Below, one piece after another: positions 3,222-23,162 of a stretch of DNA of 64,000 bases. Position 1 is the first letter of the stretch; every line of letters begins with the position of its first letter. Origin of the DNA: a virus. Lineage: Duplodnaviria; Caudoviricetes. The translations under genes and the position numbers were made by a program. The notes beneath the pieces were generated by a model, which was not told where the DNA came from, made no database searches, and was given only the letters and a program-made list of their open reading frames with translations. The stretch spans positions 96,001-160,000 of the IMG/VR virus record IMGVR_UViG_3300038300_000071; one strand, given 5' to 3'.

Positions 3222-5060
3222 ATGTCCAATGATCCTTTAATAAATTTAGCAGAGTCTTTTTTATCTGGTAATAATGAAAGCGTAGTTGACATTATAACTT
3301 TTGTTGAGGCTCCTTGGGGTCTCAATTTTAAGTTATTCCCAGCTCAAAAGTTTATGCTTAAGTGTTATTATGGATTGCCTCTGGATGGTAGGATTAAAAA
3401 CATTGAAGTTCCAGATGTTGTAAATGATAGAATATTATTTACATTCACTGAGGTGGAATTCTTACAGTGGCTGTATGAAGAGGGAAGGTGCAATACAAAC
3501 ATAGTTGAAGGAAAGATTTTCCGAGAGCTTATATTGGTAATTGGGCGTAGATCTGGAAAATCAACGATTGCCTCATGTATTTCTAATTATGAAATGTATA
3601 AGCTGATAAAGCGTGGTGATCCTTCAGCATACTACAGTTTTCCTCCAGACTCTCAAGTTGCCATATTGAATGTGGCTCCAACAGACCCGCAAGCTGGTGT
3701 TGTTTTTGGAATGATTAGAGGTATGACGTCTAGATGTAATTACCTTCAGAATCGTGTTTTAAATTCAACTCAGAATTATTTCAATATTTCTACAGATACT
3801 GATTTAAAGTCAGTTGGCAAGAAGAAAGCTTCAATAATATCAATGGCTGGCGGTTGTTCTTCAAACTCTCTTCGTGGACGTAATAGTATCGTCGTAATTA
3901 TGGATGAATTTGCATTCTTTATTGACAATGGCGGACGTTTTGCAGGAAGTGAGGTTTATAAAGCTCTCACGCCATCCACGGCTTCATTTAAGCGTGACGG
4001 CAAGGTTATTGTTATATCATCGCCGTATGCGAAGTATGGAGCCTTCTGGGATAGATATAATGAGTCGTTTGATGAGGAAGAAAGTACTCTTATGTTTAAG
4101 ATGTATACTCCAATGGTAAATCCGACAATTGATAAGTCTATATTAAAGGCTGAGAGGAAGAGAGATAAGATTGGGTTTATCGGGGAATATGGGGCGGAGT
4201 TTTCAGACTCTGTTGTAGCTTGGATAGATGATGAAGATGTCTTCAAGTCTTGCATTCCGAGTACGAAAGTGATAAATGCCAAGGGTAGAGAAGATGTGGT
4301 TTACAATAAAGTAGGGCCTGAAAGAGGAGTTACTGGGGTAAGATATTATGCTGGTATCGATTTGGGCTTAAAAAATGATGGAACTGCAATTTCAATTGTT
4401 CACAGGGAAGGAAAGAAAATAATTTTAGATTACGCTAAAGTTTGGTATTCTGGATCTTCTGATGTTTGGGATTTTCAAAACAGTATATATAAAGATTGTG
4501 GCGAGTTTAAAGATGATGAATATTTAAAGATAAGAGACATAATAAAAGAAATAAAAGAGATAAATAAGCTTTTCCCAGTCTATCAAGGTTTTTTTGACCA
4601 GCATAATGGCGCAGCTTTGATGGAAATGTTACATGAAGATGGATTAACTCAGTTTGAGATGGAGCATGTTTCAGATACAAGCGCAAGTAAAATATATAAT
4701 TTGGCAAAAACTCTCTATCAGGATCAGTTGTTGGAGCTGTTCTATGATCCAGTGTTAATTCCAGAGCTTTTATCTTTAGAGGCTGAAAAGAGATCTAAAC
4801 AGAAGATTATTGTCAGAGGACAAACTAAGAAAGGCGCACACGATGATGTTAGCGATGCCTATATAAGGGCCGTGTGGGCTTGCTATCAAGATTCCAAGGA
4901 TAAGAGTGCGAATGTTGCAACTAATAGATTTGGAGTGGTTCGCAAGCCATCTGTGGGTGCAAAGGGAGCATCTGTAAATACTTTTGCTCTTAATAAAGAA
5001 AAAGCCCATGGAGCACATCCAAGGCTTGGAAGTGTTAGATCGAGAAAGGGAAGAAGATGA
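3222..5060 (+). CDS. terL: Terminase large subunit
   Basis: Walker A GRRSGKS, Walker B IVVIMDE, coupling motif ISSP, RNase H-like GIDLG, FDQ and HDDVSDA. Confidence 0.93.
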   Translation: MSNDPLINLAESFLSGNNESVVDIITFVEAPWGLNFKLFPAQKFMLKCYYGLPLDGRIKNIEVPDVVNDRILFTFTEVEFLQWLYEEGRCNTNIVEGKIFRELILVIGRRSGKSTIASCISNYEMYKLIKRGDPSAYYSFPPDSQVAILNVAPTDPQAGVVFGMIRGMTSRCNYLQNRVLNSTQNYFNISTDTDLKSVGKKKASIISMAGGCSSNSLRGRNSIVVIMDEFAFFIDNGGRFAGSEVYKALTPSTASFKRDGKVIVISSPYAKYGAFWDRYNESFDEEESTLMFKMYTPMVNPTIDKSILKAERKRDKIGFIGEYGAEFSDSVVAWIDDEDVFKSCIPSTKVINAKGREDVVYNKVGPERGVTGVRYYAGIDLGLKNDGTAISIVHREGKKIILDYAKVWYSGSSDVWDFQNSIYKDCGEFKDDEYLKIRDIIKEIKEINKLFPVYQGFFDQHNGAALMEMLHEDGLTQFEMEHVSDTSASKIYNLAKTLYQDQLLELFYDPVLIPELLSLEAEKRSKQKIIVRGQTKKGAHDDVSDAYIRAVWACYQDSKDKSANVATNRFGVVRKPSVGAKGASVNTFALNKEKAHGAHPRLGSVRSRKGRR

Positions 5061-6625
5061 AAAAGAAAAATTCAAAAGGGCCAATGACCAAAGAAGAAAG
5101 GAAGAGAAGGACTAAAAAGATTAAATCCGTTAGGCATTTGGCTCAAAACATACATAAGCTTAGAAGTGCGGTAAGAACGGATTTAAGATCTGACGATGAG
5201 AAGAAAAGACTTACTGCTTTGGCTGTTGCTTTGATGGATAAGACGGCAGAGCGCGTTGGAAATGAAGCGTCTGCAAGAGATAATGGTCATTTCGGAGTAA
5301 CTGGATTTAGAAATAATCATATTGAGGTCAACGGCAATAATGTAAAAATAGACTATGTCGGAAAGTCAGGAGTTAAGCAGAGTAAATCTTTCAGTGATAA
5401 AGCGATTGCTGATGCTGTAAAGAAATGCAAGGGAAATTGCAAGAGCGGGAATGACAATGTTCTGACAACATCGGATGGATTTAGAGTAAGGGCAGACAGA
5501 GTTAATAGATATTTAGAGAGATTTGATATTACTGCAAAAGATATCAGAGGATATTCTGCAAATAAGATGATGCATGATTATCTTACCAAAGTAAAGAAGC
5601 CTAGTACTCCAGAAGAAAGAAAAAAAGTTTTTTTAGAGGGTTTGGCAAAAGTATCAGAAAGAGTAGGACATGGGAAGAATACCCTTAGATTGCATTATTT
5701 GTTGCCGAAAATAGAAAAATCATACATAAACAGTGGTAAAGTTATGAATATAAAGAAAGCCTATGATGAAAGGCAAAATGCAGAGGTTCAGAATATACTG
5801 GAAGATGTATATCCAGAAACGGCTCAGACTTTATTGCTAAAAAATGCAATGGACTACTGGGATACGACGAGGAATTATCCGAATGGGGATTGGAAGGGAG
5901 CGGAGAAATTTTATTTTTGGTTGGCTGTAATGAATGATACGGCGGCATTGGAAATTTCACATAAGGATAGTTACCCTTCATCTCTGCAAGATTCGAATGG
6001 AAGTGCTTGGAGAGTTTTAGTTCCGCATGAAGATGCGGACAGAAAAGCAATTGTTTTAGATATAAATAGCATCAAGCATGATGGCGTTAGTACTTTAGGG
6101 ACTCAAATATACTCAACAAATGATATTGACTTGTCTGAGTTGAATTGGATTAGTAGCGGAGACCATTGGACAAGATCTATACTGTGGCTTATAGAAGAAG
6201 CTAAAATGCTATCGGAAAACGGGGAAGATTTGTCAAAAGTTATTAATGGGTATAATCTAAGGTTAGAAATAGTTAGCTTAATGCATACTATTAGATTGGA
6301 GTTGACGGTTGAGATGAAAGAGATTTATAAAGCTATGACGGGAGTTGAGTTGACGCTGCCCAATGTAACGATAGCTTTGAATGATTGGAATTTTACTCCA
6401 GAGTCGGTTGCATCATTGATGTATCCTTCTGGGTGTCTGAAGTGGGCAGTCGTAACGGTATCTCCAAAGGCGTTTAAGCATGGAATGGAATATGTTAGAT
6501 ATGTTATAATGCACGAATTAATTCATTTGGCAGTAGGCGAAGGCGATAAAGATGGCCATGGGCACGGTGCTAAATTTAATATGTTAGCAGAGTCTATGGG
6601 TCTTCCTAAACAATTTAGAGATTAA
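5057..6625 (+). CDS. Type IB topoisomerase catalytic core fused to a C-terminal SprT/YgjP/WLM-like zinc metalloprotease
   Basis: ERVGNE, GKSG, TAKDIRGYSAN and GHGKNTLRLHY (R,K,R,H,Y pentad, H-to-Y spacing 9 as in poxvirus TopIB); C-terminal IMHELIH...HGHGAKF. Confidence 0.85.
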   Translation: MKKKNSKGPMTKEERKRRTKKIKSVRHLAQNIHKLRSAVRTDLRSDDEKKRLTALAVALMDKTAERVGNEASARDNGHFGVTGFRNNHIEVNGNNVKIDYVGKSGVKQSKSFSDKAIADAVKKCKGNCKSGNDNVLTTSDGFRVRADRVNRYLERFDITAKDIRGYSANKMMHDYLTKVKKPSTPEERKKVFLEGLAKVSERVGHGKNTLRLHYLLPKIEKSYINSGKVMNIKKAYDERQNAEVQNILEDVYPETAQTLLLKNAMDYWDTTRNYPNGDWKGAEKFYFWLAVMNDTAALEISHKDSYPSSLQDSNGSAWRVLVPHEDADRKAIVLDINSIKHDGVSTLGTQIYSTNDIDLSELNWISSGDHWTRSILWLIEEAKMLSENGEDLSKVINGYNLRLEIVSLMHTIRLELTVEMKEIYKAMTGVELTLPNVTIALNDWNFTPESVASLMYPSGCLKWAVVTVSPKAFKHGMEYVRYVIMHELIHLAVGEGDKDGHGHGAKFNMLAESMGLPKQFRD

Positions 6626-6638
6626 GCAGAGGTCAATT

Positions 6639-7157
6639 ATGGAAGAAGAAGGTTATAAAAAGCTGATAAACGGTAACGTAATTAACAGCTTAAAGAATTT
6701 AGAGGATAAGTTAGAAAAGAATGATCCTAGTTATTCTGATGAGTTGGCAGCTTTGCCTTCTGGACATCCATTGAGGACTGCTATAGAAGATGCCAAGCAG
6801 AGAAGAGAAGAGCGTTTAAGCAGAGAAGAATCTGTAAAGAAGACATCTGCTAGGATTAGAGAGAATAGAATGGCGAAAAAGGTCAAAAGCGCAGAGAAGA
6901 GAAAAGAAAGAGATACAATAACTCAGGATGAAGTTGATCAAGGAAGAAGCGCAGTAGACGATTTAAATGAAAAAATAGAATCTTTAAGGATGGCATCAGC
7001 CGATCTTTTAAGGGCAATACCTAAAATAAAGGATGACTTGCAAAAGTTTCCAGATGAAATGACAAAACTTTCAAGACTGGAAAGAATAGTAGGGTCAATA
7101 CATAAAGGCATGAGTGAAACAAATTTTAATAAAATTAGAATTACAGGGGAAGAATAA
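6639..7157 (+). CDS. Coiled-coil hypothetical protein
   Basis: 172-aa charged helical ORF coupled to the portal start (TAATG). Confidence 0.7.
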   Translation: MEEEGYKKLINGNVINSLKNLEDKLEKNDPSYSDELAALPSGHPLRTAIEDAKQRREERLSREESVKKTSARIRENRMAKKVKSAEKRKERDTITQDEVDQGRSAVDDLNEKIESLRMASADLLRAIPKIKDDLQKFPDEMTKLSRLERIVGSIHKGMSETNFNKIRITGEE

Positions 7158-9118
7158 TGTCAGACGACAAAATAAAGAGAAGACCTATAACTGCCTCTGA
7201 TATTGGCGTTCCTATACCCGGTGATCCAAACTATACAAGCCACAAGGGCGGAATAGCAAGGCCAGCGGTAACTAGTGGTCAAGCAGATCCAGTAAAGGGA
7301 GCTCAGGCAAGAAAAGTCAACAAGTCTCTTACAGCTGGCGGTGGGGTAAAGACTGCCGGAATGATGATTGATAATGTTCCTAATATGAATACAAGCTATA
7401 GCACAAGATACTTGGACGCTTATAGAACTTCTTATGCTTCTGGTGGTGATGACAGGGGTGGAACTTATGATGTTCCAACATACTTTGTTGAAATGAATGA
7501 TAAGAATGGCGGCGTTATATATTGGCCAACAACATTAAGAGAGAAATACTCTTGGTATAGATATTTTTACAGAACTGATGCATATGTTGGCAGAGCTTTA
7601 GATTTATTGACAGACTTGCCTATGTCTAAGTTGACCTTAAATATGCCGAAAGCAAAGGGAATGACAAAGAAGCAAAAAGAAGAGATTAATAATTTCTACG
7701 ATCATATGATGGAGAGATTAGGACTTTTTGACGTTTTGAGGTCATCGTTGTTTGAAGTAAATTGTATAGGAAACTCTTTTTTGTTTCATGAGTGGGATGA
7801 TAAAATGAAGATGTGGTCGAGCATTCAAATGCTACCTCCTGAGGAAGTTTCAGTTTTCCAGTTTCCATTTTCAGATAAGAAGCGCATAGAGTATAGGCCT
7901 GAAAGATTGATAGGGTTGATTAAGCAGCACGATAGTGACAATGGCGAAGAAGGGGGTTTTAACTATTCTGACAGTAGTTCTGACAGCTCTTTGTCAAGTG
8001 ACATTGTTGACTTGATTCCAGAAGACATAAAGAATATGATAAACGAAAGCGGAGCAATTATGATGGATTCAGATCCTATGAGTGGATCTTTCACCTATCA
8101 CATGACAAGAAAAAGAGCTCCTTATTTAGAGCTTGGCGCTTCGCTTTTAGAAAGAATTTTAGTTCCTTTACTTCAGAAGGAAAACTATAGATATACTCAG
8201 TTGAGTTTAGCAAATAGAAATATGACGCCTAAAAATTTAATAGTTGCTCCAAACCTAACAGGTGAAGAGTTGGAAGATTTGCGTTTGCAGGTTGACTTAT
8301 CATATTTAGATCCTGACTATTCAATCATTACAAACTATGAGGTTGATTGGAGTCAAATAGGCGCAGATCAGAGGTTGCTTGATTTGAGTAAAGAATACGA
8401 AACTATTGATAATCAAATTTTTTCCGCACTTGGAGTTACAAGAGAGTTGTTGACTGGTGAGGGAGCTTTTGGCGGAAACAAGATAACAGTTGAAATTTTA
8501 AATACAATGTTCTTACATTCTAGACAAATGTTGATTGACTACGTAGAACAGCAGTTGTTTAAGCCAGTGGCAGAGGCTAATGGTTGGTATTCAACGGATT
8601 CAAATGGCATTAAGAATTATTGGTATCCAAGAGTTGGATTTAACAGATTGACTATTCGTGACAACTCTGAAGTGTTTGACTCGTTGTTCCAGTTGTATCA
8701 GAAGGGTAGCCTTCCTGTGGATGTTATTTATGAATTATTTAACTTGGATGCTGATTCATTGAGTGAAAAGCTTGAAGAGCAGTTGTTTACGGTTAAGGAT
8801 GCTACATTCAACAGATTGCTTGAAGAGGCTAATTTAGAAGTGGGAAGAAATCTAATAGATAGGTCAAATATAGTAGAGAAGGTGACAAAATATTTAAATT
8901 TAGATTACAAAGAACCGGATGAAGGTGGAGATGTTGAAGGCGGGGAAGATGGCTTTGGCGGTGGCTTTGAAGATGAAGCAGAGGGGCCACAAGCCCTTCC
9001 TGATGATATTGTAGATGGAGTGGCAGACATATCCATAGATGAAGGTAATTTAGGGCCAGACTCAACAGATCAGGAAATTGAAGAGGCCGTACAAGAAGGG
9101 ATTAACAAGACATCATGA
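7157..9118 (+). CDS. Portal protein
   Basis: YRYFYRTDAYVGRALDLLTDLPMS, IFSALGVTRELLTGEG and LFKPVAEANG; size and position downstream of TerL. Confidence 0.85.
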   Translation: MSDDKIKRRPITASDIGVPIPGDPNYTSHKGGIARPAVTSGQADPVKGAQARKVNKSLTAGGGVKTAGMMIDNVPNMNTSYSTRYLDAYRTSYASGGDDRGGTYDVPTYFVEMNDKNGGVIYWPTTLREKYSWYRYFYRTDAYVGRALDLLTDLPMSKLTLNMPKAKGMTKKQKEEINNFYDHMMERLGLFDVLRSSLFEVNCIGNSFLFHEWDDKMKMWSSIQMLPPEEVSVFQFPFSDKKRIEYRPERLIGLIKQHDSDNGEEGGFNYSDSSSDSSLSSDIVDLIPEDIKNMINESGAIMMDSDPMSGSFTYHMTRKRAPYLELGASLLERILVPLLQKENYRYTQLSLANRNMTPKNLIVAPNLTGEELEDLRLQVDLSYLDPDYSIITNYEVDWSQIGADQRLLDLSKEYETIDNQIFSALGVTRELLTGEGAFGGNKITVEILNTMFLHSRQMLIDYVEQQLFKPVAEANGWYSTDSNGIKNYWYPRVGFNRLTIRDNSEVFDSLFQLYQKGSLPVDVIYELFNLDADSLSEKLEEQLFTVKDATFNRLLEEANLEVGRNLIDRSNIVEKVTKYLNLDYKEPDEGGDVEGGEDGFGGGFEDEAEGPQALPDDIVDGVADISIDEGNLGPDSTDQEIEEAVQEGINKTS

Positions 9119-12100
9119 ATTGGGAAGAATTGGCAATTAAAGCGGAATTTAAGGAACTTATCAAGATTGCAGGGGAAGAATCGTTCTCGGAAGAGGATAA
9201 GCAGGCAATTATTGAAAGGGTTAAAGAGAAGTTGAGGGATCATGGCGTTAGCAACGTCCATGCTGAAAATCTTATTCTAGAGGGAGATTCGGACGGAGAT
9301 GGTGATGCCGAATTGGTCGCCAGTGCTAGTTCTAAGATTGCGGCTAGTATTATTGCTGAAGAAAATACCCTGTCCGATCTTGGTCTTACGAAAGATACCG
9401 AAATAACATCTGACAATATTGATCAGATTATGGATTATTTTAAAGGGCAAGCTAAAGAAGAAGATTCTGCCGATGAAATAATTAAATCTCTTGATGGTGT
9501 TTTCGATAGGATAAAATTGCTTGTAGACTCGCTTGGTGGTGAGAGCAAGGGAGTTGATGATGAGGAATTGGCGGGAAATGACAAGAAGAAAGAAGCTTCT
9601 TTGAAATGTGCTGAAAAAAATATCTTATCAGATTTTATTGTAGATGAGTTGGTGAAGTATGCCAAGAGATTTGAATATCAGTCAGAGTTGGACAAGTATC
9701 TTAGAGATCATCCAGATGCCGATAGATTGGATCATAGCTATGATAAGAAGGGAGAGTCTGGGAAGGGAAGGCCTAGAAATTCTAAGCTTTGGCCTACTAA
9801 AAACCAGATGGAGACTTATTTAGACAATCATCCAAAAGCTGACAAATCAAAGCATCAGTATAAGAAAGATGACAAAGGCAACGGCCATCCTGATGTTTCA
9901 AAAGTGGATCAGGGAGGAGGTTCTGGCGAAGAAAAGAGAAGAACTCCAGCAGAAAAAGAGAAGGAGTTTTACAAGGATAATCCAGAATTGGATGGGCCAG
10001 ATCTTGAAATACTTACTCCAGAGCAGCAGAAAGAAAAGGAAGACGCTAGGCCAATTTCTGAAAGTCCTGAAAAGCAGAAAGAAATAAGAGATAAGATAGA
10101 AGAGGTAAAGGAAAAGATAGAGGCTGAGAAGTCTGGAGAAAAGCCCTCTGATGGATTGGAAGATTCTCATATTGAAAAGGATACTCCTCATTGGTTTAAT
10201 GAGAATGAGAATATAGATCCTTTGAATAATGTTCAGATGGAAAAAAAAGGATTTGAGAAAGGGTTTTCAGATTTAATGGATGAAGATGTCTTTTATGATG
10301 TTAGAACCGGAAAGGCTCATAAATTTTCAGATCTTCCAAAGAAAGTTAGAGAAAAGCTTGCAGAAAAAGCCAGCACGGGAGAGCTTTGGCACTCACAGCC
10401 TTCTAATAATAGAAAGAATAAGCTCAAACTTAAGGAGACTGCGCCTTTGACCGAGGGCGACAAAGATAAAGGACTTAAGGAAAATTCAAATGATTTATTT
10501 AGCGACAAGGTAAACAAATCAAAGAAAGACTTTTCTAAAGAGATTGTTAAGAATGAAAAAGAAATAAGAGATACGATGGTCGATGAAGGAAAAGTCATCG
10601 GAGATCTGTTTAATAAATTTAGGGAAAAGAGAAATCAGGAAATTCTTGATAACAGTGAAAATCCTGAAAGTGATGTTTTGTTTGATAAGAATGATGAAGC
10701 TTATCATTTTGAAAAGCCTCAAGCTGAATCTGACAAAGGAATGCTGCCTTCTTCTCGCAAGCCTGAGAGGAATGATTCTGTGATGATGAAAAGTCAAAAG
10801 GGGAAAGGGCCAGCTTGGAATGTTGAAAAAATAGAAGGAGATACTGCCTTTTTGAGGAATGAAAAAACTGACAAGGTAATGCAGTCTCCTTTGAATCAAT
10901 TGGAGTTTAGCGATAATAGCAAGTCTGTCAAGAAAAAAGACACTAAAGATAAGCCTCTTGACAAAAAGAAAATGACAATGAAGGATTTCTTAGAGAATGT
11001 TCCAAATGAAGAGGCTCTTACGGATAGGGAAAGAAAGATTGTAGAGAAGATGTTTGACGTTCCTGAGAAGGAATCTCCCAAGAAGGAATCTCCTAAGAAG
11101 GAATCTCCTAAAAAGGAATCTCCTAAGAAGGAAGTGGTTGAAAAGACTACTGATAAGATAGTTCCTAAAAAAGAAGATTCTAATGAACCTGGAACGTCTA
11201 GAGAAGATGTGTTTAAAACTCTTGGATTTAAGCAATTTACTAATAAAAATATTGGCGAGAAATCAAGGGGCTATAGTCCTGACAAGGTTAAGGGAGCTAT
11301 AACATCGATTTATAGAAATATATTAAACTCAAGGCCAGTCCATCCTCCTACAATAGGGAAATTAACTAAGAAGGAGTTGGAAAAAACCATGGATATGTTG
11401 GGAATATCCCATGAGGATCTTGGCACTACTTCTAATTCATCCGTGGGTGACATTGCGAAGGGAGTTGTGAAGGAAGTCAGTGATATGACGCCTGCTTATG
11501 GAGAGGAGAGTGTATCTCGTAGAAATACAAGATATAGTCCAAGCAGCAAGAGAGAAGAGCCTAAGAAAGATGTAGCTGAAAAAAATACAGATAAGATAGA
11601 CCCTTCTCAAAAGGATAATTCCGATGAAAAGCCTCCCGCAGAGAGTAACAGACGAGTTAAACCTAAGCCTTCTGCACGTCTTCAGAAGATTGGAGATGGA
11701 GATTATCAGCATGAGGGAAAGTATTCCCAAAGAATCCAAAAGAGTGGTGGTGGGTATTCTGTTTCCACCAAAGATGGAAACAAGATTTTGCCAGCGATGA
11801 GTTTTAAGAATTTGGCTGGAGTTCGCAGTTGGATAGGATCTGTTAATCAGGGTGATATAGTTTTTGATGGTAAGTCTTGGCAGGATAAGACTCCTGAGAA
11901 AGATTTAGTTGAAAAGGTTACAGACAAGATAGTTCCTAAAAAGGAAGCTCCTAAGAAGGATGTAGTTGAAAAGGTTACAGACAAGATAGTTCCTAAAAAG
12001 GAAGCTCCTAAGAAAGAATCTCCTAAGAAGAAGGATGATTCGTTTAAGGATTTTGAAGAAACGTTAGATCCAAAAACTGTTTCTAAAATAGTAGATGCGT

Positions 12101-15100
12101 ATGGAGACGGAGTAAATAATCATATCACCGATTATTTAGATTCTAATAATATAAAATTAGATAAAAAGCAGCAAGATGCGCTGTGGCACAGGGTGGATGC
12201 TCTGGGAATGGAAGAAGTTGGATCTGGAAGTTACAATGAGCAAAGTTCATTGGATAGAATTGAAGGAAGGCTTCCATCTATAATGGATGCTATAACCAAT
12301 CCTAAGAAAGAAACTCCTAAGAAAGAAACTCCTAAAAAAGATGTAGTTGAAAAGATCACAGACAAAATAGCTCCTAAGAAGGTGTCTCCTGAAAATACAG
12401 TTACTAAGGTTGATGCTCCTAAGGGAGAAGTACCCAAGTTAGATCCTAACAAAGAGCCTAAGGGCGGCCCTAGACAGACTTTCCATTTTGGAAACAAGGA
12501 GTGGGATATAGATCAAGGGCTTAGATATGTAGAAGAGAAAGGATTGAAGCCAGAGTCTGTAAAGACTGACGACCTTAAAGGTTATCTTGGAATTGTCAAA
12601 GTGGATCAGGACTATGCTTCGAAGTTAACAAACAAAGAGCCATTGTTGGCGATTACAAGTGAAGATGGAAGCATGGTTGTTGATGGTTATCATAGAATTC
12701 AAAAGGCGGTAAACGATGGTGTGGAGAATTTAGATGTTGTTTTCCTTAATGATAAGCAGTCTAAGGATATAGAAATACCAGATCATGCTGGAGCGCGTTC
12801 TAAAGCTCATAATGATTTCTACAAGAAAAAAAGGCCTTCTAAGAAAGTAGCTCCTAAGAAAGAAGATTCTAAGAAAGAAGATTCTAAAAAGACAGTTACC
12901 AAGAAAGAAGTTTCTGAGAAGAAATCTCCTGAGAAGGGTGAAATTAGCGTTAGTCACAAAGATAAGAAATTCGATGATACAACTATTAATATTAGCAAGT
13001 ATGAGTCTCCTAATGGGAAAATTGAAATATTCAATAACAGTCCTTGGGCTGGTGGAAGGGATTCAATCACTGAGACAACGGTAAATAAGGACTTTAGAAG
13101 AAATGGAGAGGGATCAAGAATTCTCAAGAAAGCATTGGAGGGGAGGACTCAAGTTTCTGCTCAAACATCCAGCAAGGGTTCAACAACTTTCTTTTATAAC
13201 AATGGGTTTAGACCAGTTGAAAAGCCTGACGCATCTCTCAAAGAGACGGTGGAGATGTTTAATGAGAATCAATCTCTGGGAATGGAGTGGAATGCCAAGA
13301 AGGAAACTCCTAAGAAGGATGTAGTCGAAAAGGTTACAGACAAGATAGTTCCTAAAAAGGAAGCTCCTAAGAAAGAGACTCCTAAGAAAGAGACTCCTAA
13401 GAAAGAGACTCCTAAGAAAGAGACTCCTAAAAAGGAAGCTCCTAAAAAGGAAGCTCCTAAGAAAGAGACTCCTAAGAAAGAGACTCCTAAAGTGGAAGAT
13501 CTTAAAAAGCGCAGGGAGGAGTTACACTATCTTAATGATATTGCTGAAAAGAAAATAAGAGACTTTGATGGTGAAAAGAAACAAAATGGTCAATATAGAA
13601 AGCAATACCAGATGGATCTTGACAATTTAAAGGAACAGTCAGAATCTTATAAGAGAACAATAGATAGAATAAATGATGGTATTGATAAGGAGTCTCAGCC
13701 TAAAAAAGATGTAGTTGAAAAGATTACAGATAGGATAGCTCCTAAGAAGGAATCTCCTAAGAAGGAAGAGTCGGCAGGCGGTACTATGGTGAAGAAGTTT
13801 AATGACATGCAGAATGCCAGCAAGGCTATTGCTGATCACGCCAATGCCAAGATGATGCATGATGGGGCTAAGAAGAAGCATGACGATTATTCAGTGTCGA
13901 AGACAAAAGACGGAAAAGTCGTAAAGAAGTCTCAAAAGATTAAAGACGATCTTAAGAAAGATTTAGATGTTCGAAGAAAGAAGATGGACGATTTGGATAA
14001 AAGCATACCTGCTGAGTTTAAAGGTAAGACATTGTCGGATATGAGCAAGATGACTGGCGATCTTTATACTAAAATAAAGAAAGGGCCTTCCAAATCAGTA
14101 GCTCCTAAGTCAGTAGCTCCTAAGAAAGTATCTCCTAAGAAAGAGACTACCAAGAGTGAATCTGGGAAGCATTATGATTCATTAAAATCTATGGGAACCT
14201 CGGCTGAGCGTAGGAAGTATGTTAAGGATCAAATGTCGGATAAATCTTTATCTAAAAGCGATCAAGCAAAAATACATGAAGATTATAGTAAATTAATGAA
14301 AGATGAAAAGGATGACTTTTCAGATCAGTTGATGGTTAGTCAGGGCGATGCAGCTAAGACCAAAAAGATAATGGATCACATATCTAAAACCAGAGGAGAT
14401 GTTTTTGCAGAAGGCGTAGAGAAGATGGTTGATAAGAAAAAGAAAGAAGCTCCTAAGAAAGTAGCTCCTAAGAAGGTAGAGCCTAAAAAAGAAGCTCCTA
14501 AAAAAGATGTAGTTGAAAAGATTACAGATAAGATAGCTCCTAAGGCGGTAGAGCCTAAAAGAGAAGCTCCTAAGACGGTAACTCCTAAGAAAGAAGCTCC
14601 TAAGAAAGAAGCTCCTAAAAAAGAAGCTCCTAAAAAAGAAGCTCCTAAGAAAGTAGAGCCTAGGAAGGTAGAGCCTAAGAAGGTAGAGCCTAAAAAAGTA
14701 GAGCCTAAAAAAGAAGCTCCTAAGAAGGTAGAGCCTAAAAAAGAGACTCCTAAAAAAGATTTAGTTGAAAAGGTTACAGACAAGATAGCTCCCAAGGAAG
14801 AATCTGGGAAGCATTATAACTCATTAAAGTCTATGGGAACCTCGACTGAGCGTAGGAAGTACATCACGGATCAAATGTCGGATAAATCTTTATCTAAAGC
14901 GGATAAGAAAAACATACATGAAGACTATAAAAAATTAATGAAAGATGAAAAAGATGACTTCTCGCAGCAGTTGATGGTTAGTCAGGGCGATAAAGCTAAG
15001 ACTAAAAAGATAATGGATCACATGTCTAAAACTAGAGGCCAGTCTTTTGCAGAAGGCGTAGAGAGTATGGTGGAGAAAAGAATGAAGGATGGAGAAGAGG

Positions 15101-15504
15101 GAAAGCTCGTCAAGAAGATAATGGACAGTCAGGGAGATGATGACAAGATCAATAAGATCATGGATGAAATCATTGAAACTAAAGGCGAAGATTTCGCAGA
15201 CGGAATTGGAGATATGGTTAAGAATAATAAGGGAAAGATTCCTGTTAGGGAAAAAGCTGAAGCCACAGCAGCGGATTTAAATGAAATAGAAGCGGCTGCG
15301 TTTCTTGAAGGAATGACTGATAGATTAGTCGAGGCTGTAAAAGATAGAGATCTTATGAGAGACACTGGTGGGCAAAGCAAAATGAGAGACAGAGAGCCTC
15401 ACAATAAGCCTCCAAGAGATGATTGCAAAAGCAGGTATAGAAATAAAAGATTGACTCCTGATGAAAGAGATAGGGATACCGATAACGATAAAGATTTAAA
15501 TTAA
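9115..15504 (+). CDS. Giant Lys/Glu-rich modular (polyvalent) protein with ParB/Srx-like and GNAT-like domains; probable internal head protein
   Basis: 2129 aa; VVDGYHR (~12676) ParB/Srx motif; FRRNGEGSRIL...FFYNNGF (~13093) GNAT; many (S/T/A)PKKE repeats; two YLxxHPxAD..H motifs. Confidence 0.75.
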   Translation: MNWEELAIKAEFKELIKIAGEESFSEEDKQAIIERVKEKLRDHGVSNVHAENLILEGDSDGDGDAELVASASSKIAASIIAEENTLSDLGLTKDTEITSDNIDQIMDYFKGQAKEEDSADEIIKSLDGVFDRIKLLVDSLGGESKGVDDEELAGNDKKKEASLKCAEKNILSDFIVDELVKYAKRFEYQSELDKYLRDHPDADRLDHSYDKKGESGKGRPRNSKLWPTKNQMETYLDNHPKADKSKHQYKKDDKGNGHPDVSKVDQGGGSGEEKRRTPAEKEKEFYKDNPELDGPDLEILTPEQQKEKEDARPISESPEKQKEIRDKIEEVKEKIEAEKSGEKPSDGLEDSHIEKDTPHWFNENENIDPLNNVQMEKKGFEKGFSDLMDEDVFYDVRTGKAHKFSDLPKKVREKLAEKASTGELWHSQPSNNRKNKLKLKETAPLTEGDKDKGLKENSNDLFSDKVNKSKKDFSKEIVKNEKEIRDTMVDEGKVIGDLFNKFREKRNQEILDNSENPESDVLFDKNDEAYHFEKPQAESDKGMLPSSRKPERNDSVMMKSQKGKGPAWNVEKIEGDTAFLRNEKTDKVMQSPLNQLEFSDNSKSVKKKDTKDKPLDKKKMTMKDFLENVPNEEALTDRERKIVEKMFDVPEKESPKKESPKKESPKKESPKKEVVEKTTDKIVPKKEDSNEPGTSREDVFKTLGFKQFTNKNIGEKSRGYSPDKVKGAITSIYRNILNSRPVHPPTIGKLTKKELEKTMDMLGISHEDLGTTSNSSVGDIAKGVVKEVSDMTPAYGEESVSRRNTRYSPSSKREEPKKDVAEKNTDKIDPSQKDNSDEKPPAESNRRVKPKPSARLQKIGDGDYQHEGKYSQRIQKSGGGYSVSTKDGNKILPAMSFKNLAGVRSWIGSVNQGDIVFDGKSWQDKTPEKDLVEKVTDKIVPKKEAPKKDVVEKVTDKIVPKKEAPKKESPKKKDDSFKDFEETLDPKTVSKIVDAYGDGVNNHITDYLDSNNIKLDKKQQDALWHRVDALGMEEVGSGSYNEQSSLDRIEGRLPSIMDAITNPKKETPKKETPKKDVVEKITDKIAPKKVSPENTVTKVDAPKGEVPKLDPNKEPKGGPRQTFHFGNKEWDIDQGLRYVEEKGLKPESVKTDDLKGYLGIVKVDQDYASKLTNKEPLLAITSEDGSMVVDGYHRIQKAVNDGVENLDVVFLNDKQSKDIEIPDHAGARSKAHNDFYKKKRPSKKVAPKKEDSKKEDSKKTVTKKEVSEKKSPEKGEISVSHKDKKFDDTTINISKYESPNGKIEIFNNSPWAGGRDSITETTVNKDFRRNGEGSRILKKALEGRTQVSAQTSSKGSTTFFYNNGFRPVEKPDASLKETVEMFNENQSLGMEWNAKKETPKKDVVEKVTDKIVPKKEAPKKETPKKETPKKETPKKETPKKEAPKKEAPKKETPKKETPKVEDLKKRREELHYLNDIAEKKIRDFDGEKKQNGQYRKQYQMDLDNLKEQSESYKRTIDRINDGIDKESQPKKDVVEKITDRIAPKKESPKKEESAGGTMVKKFNDMQNASKAIADHANAKMMHDGAKKKHDDYSVSKTKDGKVVKKSQKIKDDLKKDLDVRRKKMDDLDKSIPAEFKGKTLSDMSKMTGDLYTKIKKGPSKSVAPKSVAPKKVSPKKETTKSESGKHYDSLKSMGTSAERRKYVKDQMSDKSLSKSDQAKIHEDYSKLMKDEKDDFSDQLMVSQGDAAKTKKIMDHISKTRGDVFAEGVEKMVDKKKKEAPKKVAPKKVEPKKEAPKKDVVEKITDKIAPKAVEPKREAPKTVTPKKEAPKKEAPKKEAPKKEAPKKVEPRKVEPKKVEPKKVEPKKEAPKKVEPKKETPKKDLVEKVTDKIAPKEESGKHYNSLKSMGTSTERRKYITDQMSDKSLSKADKKNIHEDYKKLMKDEKDDFSQQLMVSQGDKAKTKKIMDHMSKTRGQSFAEGVESMVEKRMKDGEEGKLVKKIMDSQGDDDKINKIMDEIIETKGEDFADGIGDMVKNNKGKIPVREKAEATAADLNEIEAAAFLEGMTDRLVEAVKDRDLMRDTGGQSKMRDREPHNKPPRDDCKSRYRNKRLTPDERDRDTDNDKDLN
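11062..14800 (+). repeat. Dispersed in-frame repeats: 15-bp PKKE(S/T/A) units and nine PKKDVVEKVTDKI(V/A)PK linkers
   Basis: Linkers start near 11122, 11560, 11893, 11950, 12331, 13309, 13699, 14497 and 14749; a 47-nt string is identical at 11911, 11968 and 13327; tandem cctaagaaagagact at ~13366-13490. Confidence 0.95.
14158..15072 (+). repeat. Internal ~90-aa domain duplication within the giant protein
   Basis: ESGKHY(D/N)SLKSMGTS.ERRKY...FAEGVE.MV at ~14158-14430 and ~14800-15072, with a partial third copy after it. Confidence 0.9.
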
Positions 15505-18710: not shown

Positions 18711-19709
18711 ATGGAAAGACGTTGCAAAACTGAAAATTGCCTGATAAGGGCAAAAGGAAGAAAGAGTTTCGGTGTAGATTTTTCACATGCAACATTGATG
18801 AAAAATCCGAAACAGGAATGGAGTGGATTGAGTAGAAATAAAATTAAAGTTGCTCATGACAGAAAGTTAAATGTAGATTGGGAAAATTTTAACAATGACA
18901 ATTACCTATTCACCCATGCTACAATTGTTGCATCTGTAGACACAGACGGAACACATCAAATTAAAGCACCATGTAATGGGCTTATTAATAATAATGGTAA
19001 TGCTTGGACGAATGAAGTTATGTTAGCAACATTCAGATCGTTCGTTGGTGGAGAAAATTACTACGAGCATGTTCAAATACCAGAGTTGTCAAAGGGTAAG
19101 ATTCTAGACGCTGTAATAAAGCCTGTTAAGTATGCATCTGAAACTGGTGAACTGGCAGATGTTTATTATGTAGACATACTAGTAGCAACAAACAGAAGAC
19201 ATGACGATCTTGTAAGAAGAATCGGCAATGGAGAGTTATCCACAATGTCTATGGGATGTATTGCAAATGTATGTACATGTTCTAAATGCGGAAAAGAGTT
19301 AAAAGATAATGATAGAAACTGTCATCATTTAGATAATCAAATGAGACAAGAGTATACTGACTTTCAAGGAAACAGAAGAGTGGTTGCAGAACTATGTGGA
19401 AGAACTTACATAGATCCAATTACTAAAAAGAAAGTTGGTGATCCAGAGTCTGTTCAATTTATTGAAGCCAGTTGGGTTGAGAAACCAGCATTTAGAGGAG
19501 CAGTAATTAATCATTATGTTTCTGATGTTTCTAAAGTGGCTAAAGACATTATCGGATTCAGCGATAGAAAGCTTGAAGAAGTTGTAGAAGACCTATTTAA
19601 AATAAGAGTTGCTAATCAAGATGCAATGATTGCTTTAAGAGTTGCCCATGAAGAATTGCAGAGACGCAAGTGGGAAGCAATGGTAAACAACGTTACTAGA
19701 GAGTTCTAA
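18711..19709 (+). CDS. Prohead (capsid maturation) protease with zinc ribbon
   Basis: NNNGNAW, YYEH..SKGKILDA, IGNGELSTMSMGC, CTCSKCG..CHH and FIEASWV..PA; position before scaffold and MCP. Confidence 0.8.
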   Translation: MERRCKTENCLIRAKGRKSFGVDFSHATLMKNPKQEWSGLSRNKIKVAHDRKLNVDWENFNNDNYLFTHATIVASVDTDGTHQIKAPCNGLINNNGNAWTNEVMLATFRSFVGGENYYEHVQIPELSKGKILDAVIKPVKYASETGELADVYYVDILVATNRRHDDLVRRIGNGELSTMSMGCIANVCTCSKCGKELKDNDRNCHHLDNQMRQEYTDFQGNRRVVAELCGRTYIDPITKKKVGDPESVQFIEASWVEKPAFRGAVINHYVSDVSKVAKDIIGFSDRKLEEVVEDLFKIRVANQDAMIALRVAHEELQRRKWEAMVNNVTREF

Positions 19710-22301: not shown

Positions 22302-23162
22302 ATGGCTGTAAACAATCAGATCAAAAATGAAATAATCTCAAAGTACATCAAGACTGCCGCTGGCCGTCAGAAACTAGCTGCGTCTATGATTCAGCCTTTG
22401 AGAAGAAGAAGAGATTACACATCAATAGGTCGTAAGGCGTTTTTCGTTGAGCAACTTCCTGATGGAGCTCTTCCAATCTATGACAAAGATCCTAACATCA
22501 CTGCTTATGTAGTTGGTGAAGAAGGAATGAACATCGTTGCTGTTGCAAAACCTAAGCGTGTTCTTTTCCCTCTTTTCGAGATTGCGTCTAACCCTGAAAT
22601 CCAATTAACAGAATTGAAGCAACGTCGTTTTGACCTTGTTGAGCGTTCAGTTGATTTGGCAAAAGCTGAAATTCAAGCTGAAGAAGATCGTAAGGTTTTC
22701 GCAGTTATGGATGCACTTTCTGCTGATCCAACTAACCCTAACCCAGCGATTCCTGTTACTGGTAACTTAACTTCTAACGCTCTTGCTGATGCATTCGCTA
22801 ACATTGAAAGAACAGACATCCGTGTCGCTAATGTTTTTCTTAATGCTAAAGACTATGCTGATTTAAGAAAGTGGGACAGAGATACTCTGGACATCGAAAC
22901 TCAAGCAGTACTTCTTAAGACTGGTCTTATGGCTACTCTTTGGGGCGCTAAGCTTATCGTTTCTCGTATCGTTCCAGAAGGTAAAGTATATGTTTGTGGT
23001 GAGCCTGAGTTCTTTGGTCGTATTCCGGTACGTACTGAGCTTACAGTTCTATCTGCTGATGATCCAAAGCTTCGTAGAATTGGTTTCTCAATTTTCGAGC
23101 AGATCGGAATTGGCGCATACAACCCGTTCGCACTACAGGTACTTGACATTACACGTGTCTAA
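22302..23162 (+). CDS. Major capsid protein (HK97 fold, Bxz1-like type)
   Basis: GRQKLAASMIQPLR..RDY, LPDGALPIYDKD, PLFEIASNPEI and AKAEIQAEED; SD AAGGAG; biased codons (CGT, AAC, TTC). Confidence 0.9.
   Translation: MAVNNQIKNEIISKYIKTAAGRQKLAASMIQPLRRRRDYTSIGRKAFFVEQLPDGALPIYDKDPNITAYVVGEEGMNIVAVAKPKRVLFPLFEIASNPEIQLTELKQRRFDLVERSVDLAKAEIQAEEDRKVFAVMDALSADPTNPNPAIPVTGNLTSNALADAFANIERTDIRVANVFLNAKDYADLRKWDRDTLDIETQAVLLKTGLMATLWGAKLIVSRIVPEGKVYVCGEPEFFGRIPVRTELTVLSADDPKLRRIGFSIFEQIGIGAYNPFALQVLDITRV

What the first reader, a model, noticed from the sequence alone, without database searches (positions are those of the whole stretch)
5057..6625. Topoisomerase IB core fused to an SprT/Wss1-like protease, placed between terminase and portal
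Seen: the N-terminal ~230 aa carry the full TopIB pentad (RVG, GKSG, KDIR, H-x8-Y) but lack the usual N-terminal clamp domain; the C-terminus has HELIH..HGxxF of SprT/YgjP/WLM zincins. Known: eukaryotic Wss1 and SPRTN are HEXXH proteases that remove trapped Top1-DNA covalent complexes. Inference: either a self-rescuing topoisomerase, relieving torsion during packaging or ejection and proteolysing its own stalled adducts, or a packaged polyprotein cut at the KKA/KNA linker sites. I know of no characterised protein with this fusion.
Basis: partly seen in the sequence, partly recalled or inferred. Interest (0 to 1): 0.78.

Follow-up and report, generated by a model that had tools for sequence, protein, structure and literature searches.

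The report
Phage topoisomerase IB fused to mini-protease
A large uncultured phage encodes, between its DNA-packaging and portal genes, a real fusion of a stripped-down topoisomerase IB with a small SprT-type zinc protease; comparison with relatives suggests that both parts are interchangeable cargo modules of the phage head gene block, not a dedicated self-repairing enzyme.

Summary
ORF 5057-6625 (522 aa) has three parts:
- a clamp-less TopIB catalytic core (aa 10-235; pentad R66/K103/R164/H205/Y214 invariant in 54 homologues);
- a ~150-aa 'mid' domain;
- a ~115-aa C-terminal minimal zincin (HELIH...H503GxxF, invariant terminal Asp) whose fold matches abylysin, jannalysin, selecase and the SPRTN protease subdomain about equally (Z ~10).

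It is coupled to the TerL stop (ATGA) and lies upstream of the portal gene.

The self-rescue reading is weakened.
- The zincin, alone or with mid, is a family of its own. Only 9 of its 150 best cluster representatives carry TopIB.
- It occurs alone in the same TerL-portal slot, and in a ~90% complete phage genome with no TopIB.
- It also occurs inside a NUDIX-containing polyvalent protein.

TopIB cores in related phages sit either in this slot or inside giant ORFs just after the portal. They are also fused to ART-PolyVal, Kinase-PolyVal, LPD3 and NUDIX.

Best reading (~0.5): a small polyvalent, probably head-packaged protein. TopIB would be the effector and the zincin a latent processing protease. 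Packaging and both enzyme activities are untested.

The scan flagged the same architecture on other DNA (e1-5496302, e1-5665883). I found no paper describing it.

The parts
3222..5060 (+). Terminase large subunit (context). Its TGA stop overlaps the ATG of the finding (ATGA at 5057-5060).
   Evidence: phrog_2 E=2.7e-30 and phrog_9; sequence at the junction
5057..6625 (+). The whole TopIB-mid-zincin ORF, 522 aa (P0001)
   Evidence: full-length homologues
5084..5761 (+). Clamp-less TopIB catalytic core, aa 10-235. Catalytic residues: R66 (5252-5254), K103 (5363-5365), R164 (5546-5548), H205 (5669-5671), Y214 (5696-5698).
   Evidence: Pfam E=4e-29; alignment to 2f4q; invariant columns; Foldseek to 3m4a and 2h7f
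5762..5803 (+). Linker, aa 236-249. Predicted disordered (pLDDT<50 at 238-249). Preceded by the conserved K233-x-A235.
5804..6256 (+). 'Mid' alpha/beta domain, aa 250-400. A usual N-terminal companion of the zincin in free-standing ~275-aa proteins. Absent from the ~360-aa TopIB+zincin class.
   Evidence: alignment; the mid HMM hits 89 of 150 zincin-family representatives; AF2 model with pLDDT 89
6269..6622 (+). Minimal zincin (SprT / minigluzincin type), aa 405-522. HELIH at 6512-6526, third His H503 at 6563-6565, invariant C-terminal D522 at 6620-6622.
   Evidence: Pfam SprT-like; profile match to projannalysin 4jix at E=3.6e-6; VIA Z of 10.0-10.6 to 4jiu, 6mdx, 4qhf and 4jix
6639..7157 (+). 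172-aa gene of unknown function. A gene of ~170-210 aa sits directly upstream of the portal in nearly all related loci.
7157..9118 (+). Portal protein (context)
   Evidence: phrog_16240 E=4.7e-21
9115..15504 (+). 2129-aa Lys/Pro-rich multi-module ORF directly after the portal. It has a ParB/Srx-like motif, a GNAT-like motif and a repeated linker. In many relatives the ORF in this position carries the TopIB core.
18711..19709 (+). Canonical head maturation protease (context). It shows that the zincin is not the phage's only candidate processing enzyme.
   Evidence: phrog_18299 E=7e-12

Best explanation
The gene encodes a small polyvalent protein of the phage head gene block, made of three beads on a string:
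- an intact but clamp-less TopIB catalytic core;
- a flexible linker followed by a 'mid' domain;
- a minimal SprT/minigluzincin-type zinc protease that ends the polypeptide.

Proposed mechanism, with the status of each step:
1. The gene is co-expressed with TerL and the portal. This is inferred from the ATGA overlap and from finding no more promoter-like or terminator-like sites between them than in shuffled sequence.
2. The protein is loaded into the procapsid and leaves with the DNA. This is inferred from synteny and from its polyvalent-protein relatives. It is not shown.
3. The zincin is kept latent by its own conserved C-terminal ...Y-[QR]-D tail. This is inferred by analogy with proabylysin.
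4. The zincin then cuts in cis or on co-packaged cargo, for example at the disordered linker. This would free or later remove the topoisomerase (inferred).
5. TopIB relaxes supercoils in the entering phage genome or in host DNA. This is inferred from the invariant pentad and by analogy with the encapsidated poxvirus TopIB, which I cite from my own knowledge.

The fusion itself arose by joining neighbours that share the TerL-portal slot. Split, solo and fused states all exist in related phages.
For: Architecture and intact active sites.

Conserved synteny, TerL | TopIB(-zincin) | ~200-aa genes | portal | large ORF.

Contexts of TopIB cores in 87 loci:
- 31 lie inside 500-3125-aa ORFs directly after the portal;
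- 20 lie between TerL and the portal (11 small without zincin, 8 with zincin, one 650-aa form);
- the rest have no recognised neighbours.

Distant TopIB cores are fused to ART-PolyVal, Kinase-PolyVal, LPD3, NUDIX, DUF5824, DUF5661 and DUF6496. One sits beside other polyvalent proteins.

The zincin is an autonomous module:
- 211 clusters among 1.84 billion representatives;
- of the best 150, 9 carry TopIB, 45 are solo, and 89 carry the mid domain;
- solo zincin in the slot without TopIB (L013);
- mid+zincin in the slot without TopIB (L105);
- split adjacent genes, TopIB | mid+zincin (L012);
- NUDIX-mid-zincin-+1070 aa (P0166).

Literature: zincin-type peptidases are the commonest hub domain of polyvalent proteins and are proposed to process them (PMC5512222).

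C-terminal position of the module: it ends the protein in 144 of 150 representatives, and the last residue is Asp in 117. Proabylysin is blocked by its own C-terminal tail (PMC5557861).

Domain independence: the full-length model has pTM 0.57 and the C-terminal half alone 0.86. I read this as no fixed contact between TopIB and the rest.
Against: - No direct evidence that the protein is in virions. I found no proteomics for any relative.
- Iyer et al. 2017 do not list TopIB among polyvalent-protein domains, so the class assignment rests on my domain-network and synteny results.
- The phage has a canonical prohead protease that could do all processing, which would leave the zincin without this role.
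- The zincin fusion is stable across a clade from 40 to 85% identity with invariant catalytic residues. The window's zincin seems to have a different origin from the other TopIB-fused zincins. Repeated joining could equally reflect a specific TopIB-protease partnership.
- In L004 a true WLM gene (51 bits) also sits next to the TopIB-zincin gene.
Confidence: 0.5

Rival explanations
1. Self-rescuing topoisomerase. The zincin would be a cis-acting DNA-protein-crosslink protease, working like SPRTN or Wss1. It would degrade the TopIB when the enzyme becomes trapped as a 3'-phosphotyrosyl adduct on phage DNA, for example at nicks or ends during packaging or ejection.
For: - The zincin's fold matches the SPRTN protease subdomain about as well as any structure (6mdx Z 10.1; 6mdw is the top Foldseek hit).
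- It uses a third His in an H-G-x-x-F context. That this matches SPRTN's motif is my recollection; one search confirms only that SPRTN uses a third His.
- Wss1 is required for survival of camptothecin-induced Top1 covalent complexes (PMC4559962).
- Fusion or adjacency of TopIB and zincin recurs: a short class, a long class, a split pair in L012, and a probable second origin for the window's zincin.
- An extra WLM gene sits beside the fusion in L004.
- Catalytic residues of both domains are invariant.
Against: - 141 of the 150 best zincin-family representatives have no TopIB in the polypeptide.
- The zincin occupies the same slot without TopIB (L013, L105) and occurs in a ~90% complete genome lacking TopIB.
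- Most TopIB cores of this group have no zincin.
- SPRTN's zinc-binding DNA subdomain is absent: the alignment to 6mdx covers chain residues 43-152 only.
- The fold is equally close to the archaeal minigluzincins, for which I know of no crosslink-repair role.
Confidence: 0.2
2. A DNA-riding effector protease, analogous to ArdC. The TopIB core would mainly place the zincin on incoming or host DNA, where it would cleave DNA-bound host proteins such as restriction or nucleoid proteins.
For: - ArdC is a DNA-binding domain joined to a Spartan-like metalloprotease, and it overcomes the recipient's restriction system (PMC7213743).
- Iyer et al. 2021 suggest that SprT-like peptidases of jumbo phages target host proteins (PMC7824862).
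- The zincin is attached to many different N-terminal domains.
Against: - The full TopIB catalytic pentad is invariant, which is not needed for a mere DNA anchor.
- Solo 115-160-aa zincins have no DNA-binding partner at all.
- There is no evidence for any host target.
Confidence: 0.12
3. A non-packaged packaging or replication swivel. TopIB would act next to the terminase to release torsion in the concatemer while DNA is pumped in, and the zincin would be an unrelated neighbour that happened to fuse.
For: - The gene follows TerL directly and is translationally coupled to it.
- The same position recurs in about 20 related loci.
Against: In most relatives the same TopIB core is embedded in giant post-portal multi-domain ORFs or joined to ART, kinase or NUDIX effector domains. 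That does not fit an accessory of the packaging motor.
Confidence: 0.1
4. A selfish insertion. The cassette would be a mobile element that lodged in a hotspot for such elements, with no role for the phage.
For: In related loci the TerL and portal genes are interrupted by large inserts. Their HMM matches are split into 2-3 pieces, and Hint, intein and LAGLIDADG domains lie nearby.
Against: - Position and both active sites are conserved from 40 to 85% identity.
- No endonuclease or intein motifs lie in the ORF.
- The gene is translationally coupled to TerL.
Confidence: 0.03

Closest known systems
Polyvalent proteins of phages and conjugative elements (Iyer et al. 2017, PMC5512222)
   Same: - Unrelated enzymatic domains lie in one polypeptide.
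- A zincin-type metallopeptidase serves as a recurring hub.
- The gene sits among late or virion genes.
- Relatives of the TopIB core are fused to ART-PolyVal, Kinase-PolyVal, LPD3 and NUDIX.
   Different: - TopIB is not mentioned as a polyvalent-protein domain in the main text of that paper.
- The zincin here matches Pfam SprT-like. No Pfam polyvalent-peptidase family appeared among the hits at E<=1.
- At 522 aa the protein is small for the class.
SPRTN / Wss1 DNA-protein-crosslink proteases
   Same: - A minimal zincin fold with HExxH and a third His.
- Structural Z of 10.1 to the SPRTN protease subdomain and 7.0 to Wss1.
- Physically linked to an enzyme, Top1 or TopIB, whose adducts are their known substrates.
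   Different: - No zinc-binding or basic DNA-binding subdomains, and no SHP, VIM, SIM or UBZ motifs.
- The protease is fused to the potential substrate itself.
- The family mostly occurs without TopIB.
Archaeal minigluzincins (proabylysin 4jiu, projannalysin 4jix, selecase 4qhf)
   Same: - Size of about 105-115 aa and the same fold (Z 10.0-10.6).
- The best PDB sequence-profile hit is projannalysin, E=3.6e-6.
- The protease module ends the polypeptide with a conserved tail, recalling the C-terminal self-inhibition of proabylysin.
   Different: - Those are free-standing archaeal proteins.
- The tail motif G-[LI]-P-x-x-Y-[QR]-D seen here is specific to the phage family.
- Latency has not been tested here.
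Bacterial and poxvirus type IB topoisomerases (D. radiodurans TopIB, vaccinia/variola TopIB)
   Same: - Catalytic-domain fold and the R-K-R-H/N-Y pentad.
- From my own knowledge, poxvirus TopIB is carried in the virion. That is the functional parallel proposed here.
   Different: - The ~85-90-aa N-terminal clamp domain is missing.
- The core is joined to other modules.
ArdC (ssDNA-binding domain + Spartan-like metalloprotease; PMC7213743)
   Same: - A DNA-engaging domain joined to a SprT-like protease.
- Made by a mobile element and acting on or near incoming DNA.
- The ArdC gene is operon-linked to a plasmid topoisomerase IA gene (PMC6222260).
   Different: - ArdC uses Glu as its third zinc ligand.
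- Its partner topoisomerase is type IA and is a separate gene.
- It belongs to conjugative plasmids, not phage head modules.

Membership tests
Type IB topoisomerase (Pfam PF01028 catalytic core) | Catalytic pentad Arg-Lys-Arg-His/Asn-Tyr in register | tested here: met
   R66, K103, R164, H205 and Y214 align to DraTopIB R137, K174, R239, N280 and Y289. All are invariant in 54 homologues.
Type IB topoisomerase (Pfam PF01028 catalytic core) | Catalytic-domain fold and a family score above the cut-off | tested here: met
   101.9 bits against a cut-off of 23.7. Foldseek E ~1e-11 to 3m4a and 2h7f.
Type IB topoisomerase (Pfam PF01028 catalytic core) | N-terminal DNA-clamp domain of the bacterial and poxviral enzymes | tested here: not met
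   The query starts at the equivalent of DraTopIB residue ~85-90. In the model aa 1-7 have pLDDT below 50 and the first helix starts at aa 12.
Type IB topoisomerase (Pfam PF01028 catalytic core) | ATP-independent relaxation through a 3'-phosphotyrosyl intermediate | not testable with these tools
   Needs a relaxation assay comparing wild type with Y214F.
SprT / SPRTN family | HExxH plus a third His ligand; Pfam SprT-like above its gathering score | tested here: inconclusive
   The motif is present and invariant. The score is 24.7 bits for the protein (cut-off 25.6) and 26.5 bits in the six-frame search. 66 of 95 family members match at E<=1e-3.
SprT / SPRTN family | Zinc-binding DNA-binding subdomain after the protease subdomain | tested here: not met
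   The polypeptide ends 19 residues after H503. The alignment to 6mdx covers chain residues 43-152 only.
SprT / SPRTN family | DNA-stimulated proteolysis of crosslinked proteins | not testable with these tools
   Needs a biochemical assay.
WLM / Wss1 family (PF08325) | Match to the WLM profile | tested here: not met
   WLM is not among the four Pfam families listed for P0001 at E<=1. The structural Z is only 7.0 and 6.2. By contrast, the neighbouring 217-aa gene in L004 scores 51 bits for WLM.
Minigluzincins (abylysin, jannalysin, selecase) | A zincin catalytic scaffold of about 100-110 aa | tested here: met
   Z of 10.6, 10.0 and 10.1 with rmsd 2.3-2.6 A over 90-95 residues. Profile E=3.6e-6 to 4jix.
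Minigluzincins (abylysin, jannalysin, selecase) | Self-inhibition by the protein's own C-terminal tail | not testable with these tools
   Indirect only. The module is C-terminal in 144 of 150 representatives and the terminal residue is Asp in 117.
Polyvalent proteins (Iyer et al. 2017) | Two or more unrelated catalytic domains in one polypeptide, one commonly a zincin peptidase | tested here: met
   TopIB plus zincin; definition taken.
Polyvalent proteins (Iyer et al. 2017) | Domains shared with signature polyvalent-protein domains; a late or virion gene context | tested here: met
   TopIB cores are fused to ART-PolyVal, Kinase-PolyVal, LPD3 and NUDIX. There is a NUDIX-mid-zincin protein. The gene lies in the TerL-portal slot or directly after the portal.
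Polyvalent proteins (Iyer et al. 2017) | Packaged in the virion and delivered with the DNA | not testable with these tools
   Needs virion proteomics.

The most novel reading that the evidence does not exclude
The phage carries a topoisomerase with a built-in disposal system. TopIB is packaged with the genome and may even be held covalently on a genome end or nick, where it could seal or circularise the DNA on entry. The cis-linked SprT-type protease then removes the enzyme or its trapped adduct. This would be a prokaryotic-virus counterpart of the eukaryotic Top1-SPRTN/Wss1 partnership, in one polypeptide.
Probability: 0.12. Interest if true: 0.85.

Novelty: new variant of a known kind. Interest (0 to 1): 0.6.

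Why it matters
If the cargo reading is right, a large group of uncultured big phages (contigs of about 60-500 kb) brings its own type IB topoisomerase into the cell with the DNA. To my knowledge this strategy is known for poxviruses but not for phages.

TopIB would then join the set of enzymes that phages string into polyvalent proteins. The small zincin family ending in ...Y-[QR]-D would become a tractable model for how such cargo is processed or kept latent.

If the rarer self-rescue reading is right, this would be the first fused topoisomerase plus adduct protease. That would give a simple system for studying crosslink proteolysis.

In either case the protein is small, its predicted active sites are clear, and it could be tested directly in vitro.

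Tried and rejected
- **Whole-model fold search.** Foldseek against PDB with the full model returned only TopIB and tyrosine recombinases, so I folded the C-terminal half separately.
- **C-terminal half, Foldseek.** Against PDB there was nothing at E<=1e-3; the best hit was SPRTN 6mdw at E=0.03. Against BFVD there were only weak SprT-like phage proteins.
- **Mid domain.** No convincing fold match on its own. Some M1 aminopeptidase rows span mid plus zincin at Z ~6-6.7, within the background range the tool gives.
- **Locus searches with zincin alignments.** A3 failed on viral contigs and A5 on metagenome contigs, both for lack of a conserved stretch. A5 found only one IMG/VR locus. A6 found 14 metagenome loci.
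- **Context of free-standing mid+zincin genes outside the head block** (L094, L100). PHROGs gave no useful annotation.
- **P0136, the closest free-standing relative of the window's C-terminal half.** Its contig is only 941 bp, so its neighbours are unknown.
- **P0060 (L016), a 650-aa TopIB protein with an internal HELAH.** hhalign to the zincin profile gave probability 13%, so it is unclear whether this is a diverged zincin.
- **Literature.** I found no paper with TopIB + SprT + phage, no virion proteomics mentioning TopIB in the jumbo-phage papers I opened, and no TopIB in the main text of the polyvalent-protein paper.
- **Not run.** Complex prediction, because the report claims no specific binding. 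Sequencing-run and read tools, because they were not needed.
- **Rejected: the zincin as the phage's head maturation protease.** A canonical one exists at 18711-19709.


Full report
**1. What is in the sequence**

The + strand ORF 5057-6625 is open for 522 codons. Its ATG overlaps the TGA of the upstream 612-aa gene (ATGA at 5057-5060) and follows a purine-rich stretch. The upstream gene is a terminase large subunit (phrog_2, E=3e-30). The 653-aa gene at 7157-9118 is a portal (phrog_16240, E=5e-21). Between 2500 and 9500, promoter-like and terminator-like sites are no more frequent than in shuffled sequence.

The window is part of a 202-kb IMG/VR virus record estimated to be 62% complete. All its long ORFs (200 aa or more) are on one strand except one that overlaps a + strand gene.

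**2. The TopIB part**

- Pfam Topoisom_I matches aa 16-209 (E=4e-29).
- The best solved relative by sequence is Deinococcus radiodurans TopIB (2f4q, E=2e-18). It aligns from its residue 90 onward.
- Counting along that alignment, query R66, K103, R164, H205 and Y214 fall on R137, K174, R239, N280 and Y289. From my own knowledge these are the catalytic residues of that enzyme.
- All five are invariant in 54 homologues.
- An AlphaFold2 model built on that alignment (pLDDT 85) matches bacterial and variola TopIB at Foldseek E ~1e-11.

**3. The C-terminal half**

The model shows a disordered linker (aa 238-249), a folded alpha/beta 'mid' domain (about 250-400) and a compact domain from about 405 to the end.

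The last domain carries HELIH (486-490), H503 in an H-G-x-x-F context, F507 and a terminal D522, all invariant. The evidence on what it is:

- Pfam SprT-like sits at the threshold: 24.7 bits for the protein and 26.5 bits in a six-frame search, against a cut-off of 25.6.
- A profile of the module finds projannalysin (4jix, E=3.6e-6) and proabylysin.
- Structure alignment gives Z 10.6 to abylysin, 10.1 to the SPRTN SprT domain (6mdx, protease subdomain only), 10.1 to selecase, 10.0 to jannalysin and 7.0 to Wss1.
- SPRTN 6mdw is the top Foldseek hit, at E=0.03.
- The literature places Wss1 and SPRTN with the minigluzincins (PMC4559962), so these matches agree with each other.

The domain is therefore a minimal SprT/minigluzincin-type zincin. 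It has no zinc-binding DNA subdomain.

**4. Homologues of the whole protein**

Of the 120 best hits, 58 carry the zincin.

- Two are 84-85% identical and 522 aa long.
- About eight are 40-46% identical and share the three-part architecture.
- A larger class of about 355-390 aa has TopIB plus zincin without the mid domain.
- More distant cores are joined to NUDIX, GNAT, ART-PolyVal, Kinase-PolyVal, LPD3, DUF5824, DUF5661, DUF6496, DUF5754 and DUF3140.
- One of these sits next to a 1331-aa ART-hemerythrin-kinase protein and a 2184-aa protein.

**5. The zincin seen from its own side**

A profile of the module found only 211 clusters among 1.84 billion representatives. Among the best 150:

- 9 contain TopIB;
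- 45 are solo proteins of about 115-160 aa;
- 96 have some other N-terminal region;
- 89 carry the mid domain.

So mid+zincin, at about 275 aa, is a free-standing family.

The module ends the protein in 144 of the 150, and the last residue is Asp in 117. One member is a 1475-aa protein with a NUDIX box, then mid, then zincin, then about 1070 more residues. The ESM Atlas cluster nearest in shape is a 142-aa, 98% viral family.

**6. Genomic contexts**

The order TerL | TopIB-zincin | small genes | portal | large ORF recurs. Other states also exist:

- L012 has TerL | TopIB (261 aa) | mid+zincin (279 aa) as two overlapping genes.
- L013 has TerL | solo zincin (134 aa) | 201 aa | portal, with no TopIB.
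- L105 has TerL | mid+zincin | ... | portal, with no TopIB within the 16.8-kb locus.
- L094 carries an N-extended mid+zincin in a 185-kb, ~90% complete genome with no TopIB match at all.

Across 87 TopIB loci:

- 31 have the core inside a 500-3125-aa ORF directly after the portal;
- 20 have it between TerL and the portal;
- the rest lack recognisable neighbours.

In this window the post-portal ORF is 2129 aa. It is Lys/Pro-rich and has a repeated linker, a ParB/Srx-like motif and a GNAT-like motif.

**7. Trees**

*TopIB-core tree.* All zincin fusions and the split L012 gene fall in one well-supported 16-row clade. That clade also holds small zincin-less forms and the Kinase-PolyVal and LPD3 fusions. 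The other, 54-row clade is mostly cores in post-portal giant ORFs.

*Zincin tree.* It rests on 113 columns and is weakly resolved. It splits into two major groups (support 98).

- Nearly all TopIB-fused zincins are in one group.
- The window's own zincin is in the other, next to the free-standing P0136. P0136 is 44% identical to the window's C-terminal half over 278 aa.

This suggests at least two joining or replacement events. The short alignment makes that tentative.

**8. Reading**

The two domains are each autonomous. They are exchangeable and share a domain network (TopIB-NUDIX, NUDIX-mid-zincin, TopIB-mid-zincin) with the polyvalent proteins described by Iyer et al. 2017. In that paper zincin peptidases are the main hub and are proposed to process the proteins before or after delivery.

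The position of the genes, beside the portal and inside post-portal giant ORFs, suggests head cargo. I therefore favour a small polyvalent, probably packaged protein with TopIB as the effector and the zincin as a latent processing protease.

The conserved C-terminal tail recalls proabylysin, which is blocked by its own C-terminus.

None of packaging, protease activity, latency or relaxation is shown.

**9. The self-rescue idea**

It stays possible, for these reasons:

- the fold is close to SPRTN;
- both active sites are invariant;
- the two modules have been joined repeatedly;
- a bona fide WLM gene lies beside the fusion in L004 (51 bits).

Against it, the zincin family and the TopIB family are each mostly found without the other.

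**10. Other readings**

An ArdC-like DNA-riding effector protease, a non-packaged swivel and a selfish insertion are less likely. The reasons are given under the rival explanations.

**11. Literature**

I found no paper on a TopIB-SprT fusion in phages. Iyer et al. 2021 note, separately, that some group 2.2 jumbo phages carry a phage-type topoisomerase I and that some carry SprT-like peptidases. They do not describe a fusion.

**12. Earlier notes of this scan**

First-stage notes on other genomes describe the same architecture (e1-5496302) and a TopIB between terminase and portal (e1-5665883). Both agree with the loci I examined.

Noticed in passing
window 9115-15504: A 2129-aa ORF directly after the portal. 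Globular modules, including a ParB/Srx-like 'DGYHRIQKA' motif and a GNAT-like 'RRNGEGSRI' motif, are separated by PKKE runs and by a linker (KDVVEK[VI]TDKI[VA]PKKE) repeated about ten times. It looks like a polyvalent or polyprotein head cargo. A first-stage note (e1-5682465) already covers it.
   Followed up: partly
L004 7346-7999: In one relative a separate 217-aa gene with a true WLM (Wss1-like) domain (PF08325, 51 bits) lies between TerL and the TopIB-zincin gene. That slot therefore holds two different minigluzincin-type proteases.
   Followed up: partly
L004 10600-15195; L016 7017-9926 and 13958-18307; L019 6752-9919; L029, L036, L061, L086, L090: In many related phages the TerL and portal genes are 1.5-2.4 times the usual length, and their HMM matches are split into 2-3 pieces. 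Hint, intein and LAGLIDADG domains are recorded in a nearby gene of L004. These are probably inteins or other large insertions in the packaging genes.
   Followed up: no
window 6639-7157 and the equivalent genes in L001, L013, L015, L024 and others: A gene of about 170-210 aa with no family match sits immediately upstream of the portal in nearly all related loci, whether or not TopIB or the zincin is present.
   Followed up: no
P0166 (1475 aa) and P0212 (2472 aa), from the representative search: P0166 is NUDIX-mid-zincin followed by about 1070 further residues, so here the zincin is internal. P0212 has at least five partial zincin-like segments spaced about 250-500 residues apart, which suggests a repeat protein built from a piece of the module.
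   Followed up: partly
many loci, directly after the TopIB core (e.g. L028, L029, L045, L047, L048, L080): The residues after the conserved '...DGTV' end of the core are often basic K-x-[AG]-[ST] motifs, followed by 'TKT(D/E)xERED(E)'. This is a conserved domain-boundary motif and could be a processing site. The window has K233-K-A235 at this point.
   Followed up: partly
L109 (Xanthomonas phage PhiXhv-12, PV764601.1) 8053-10059: In this cultured 228-kb phage the annotated 'topoisomerase' is a 668-aa protein. Its TopIB core lies in the middle of the protein, and the gene is about 2.7 kb upstream of the head-tail connector gene. It could serve as an experimental handle for virion proteomics.
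   Followed up: no
window 18711-19709 and 22302-23162: A canonical head maturation protease (phrog_18299) and the major head protein (phrog_2522) lie downstream. The head module therefore has its own conventional protease.
   Followed up: yes
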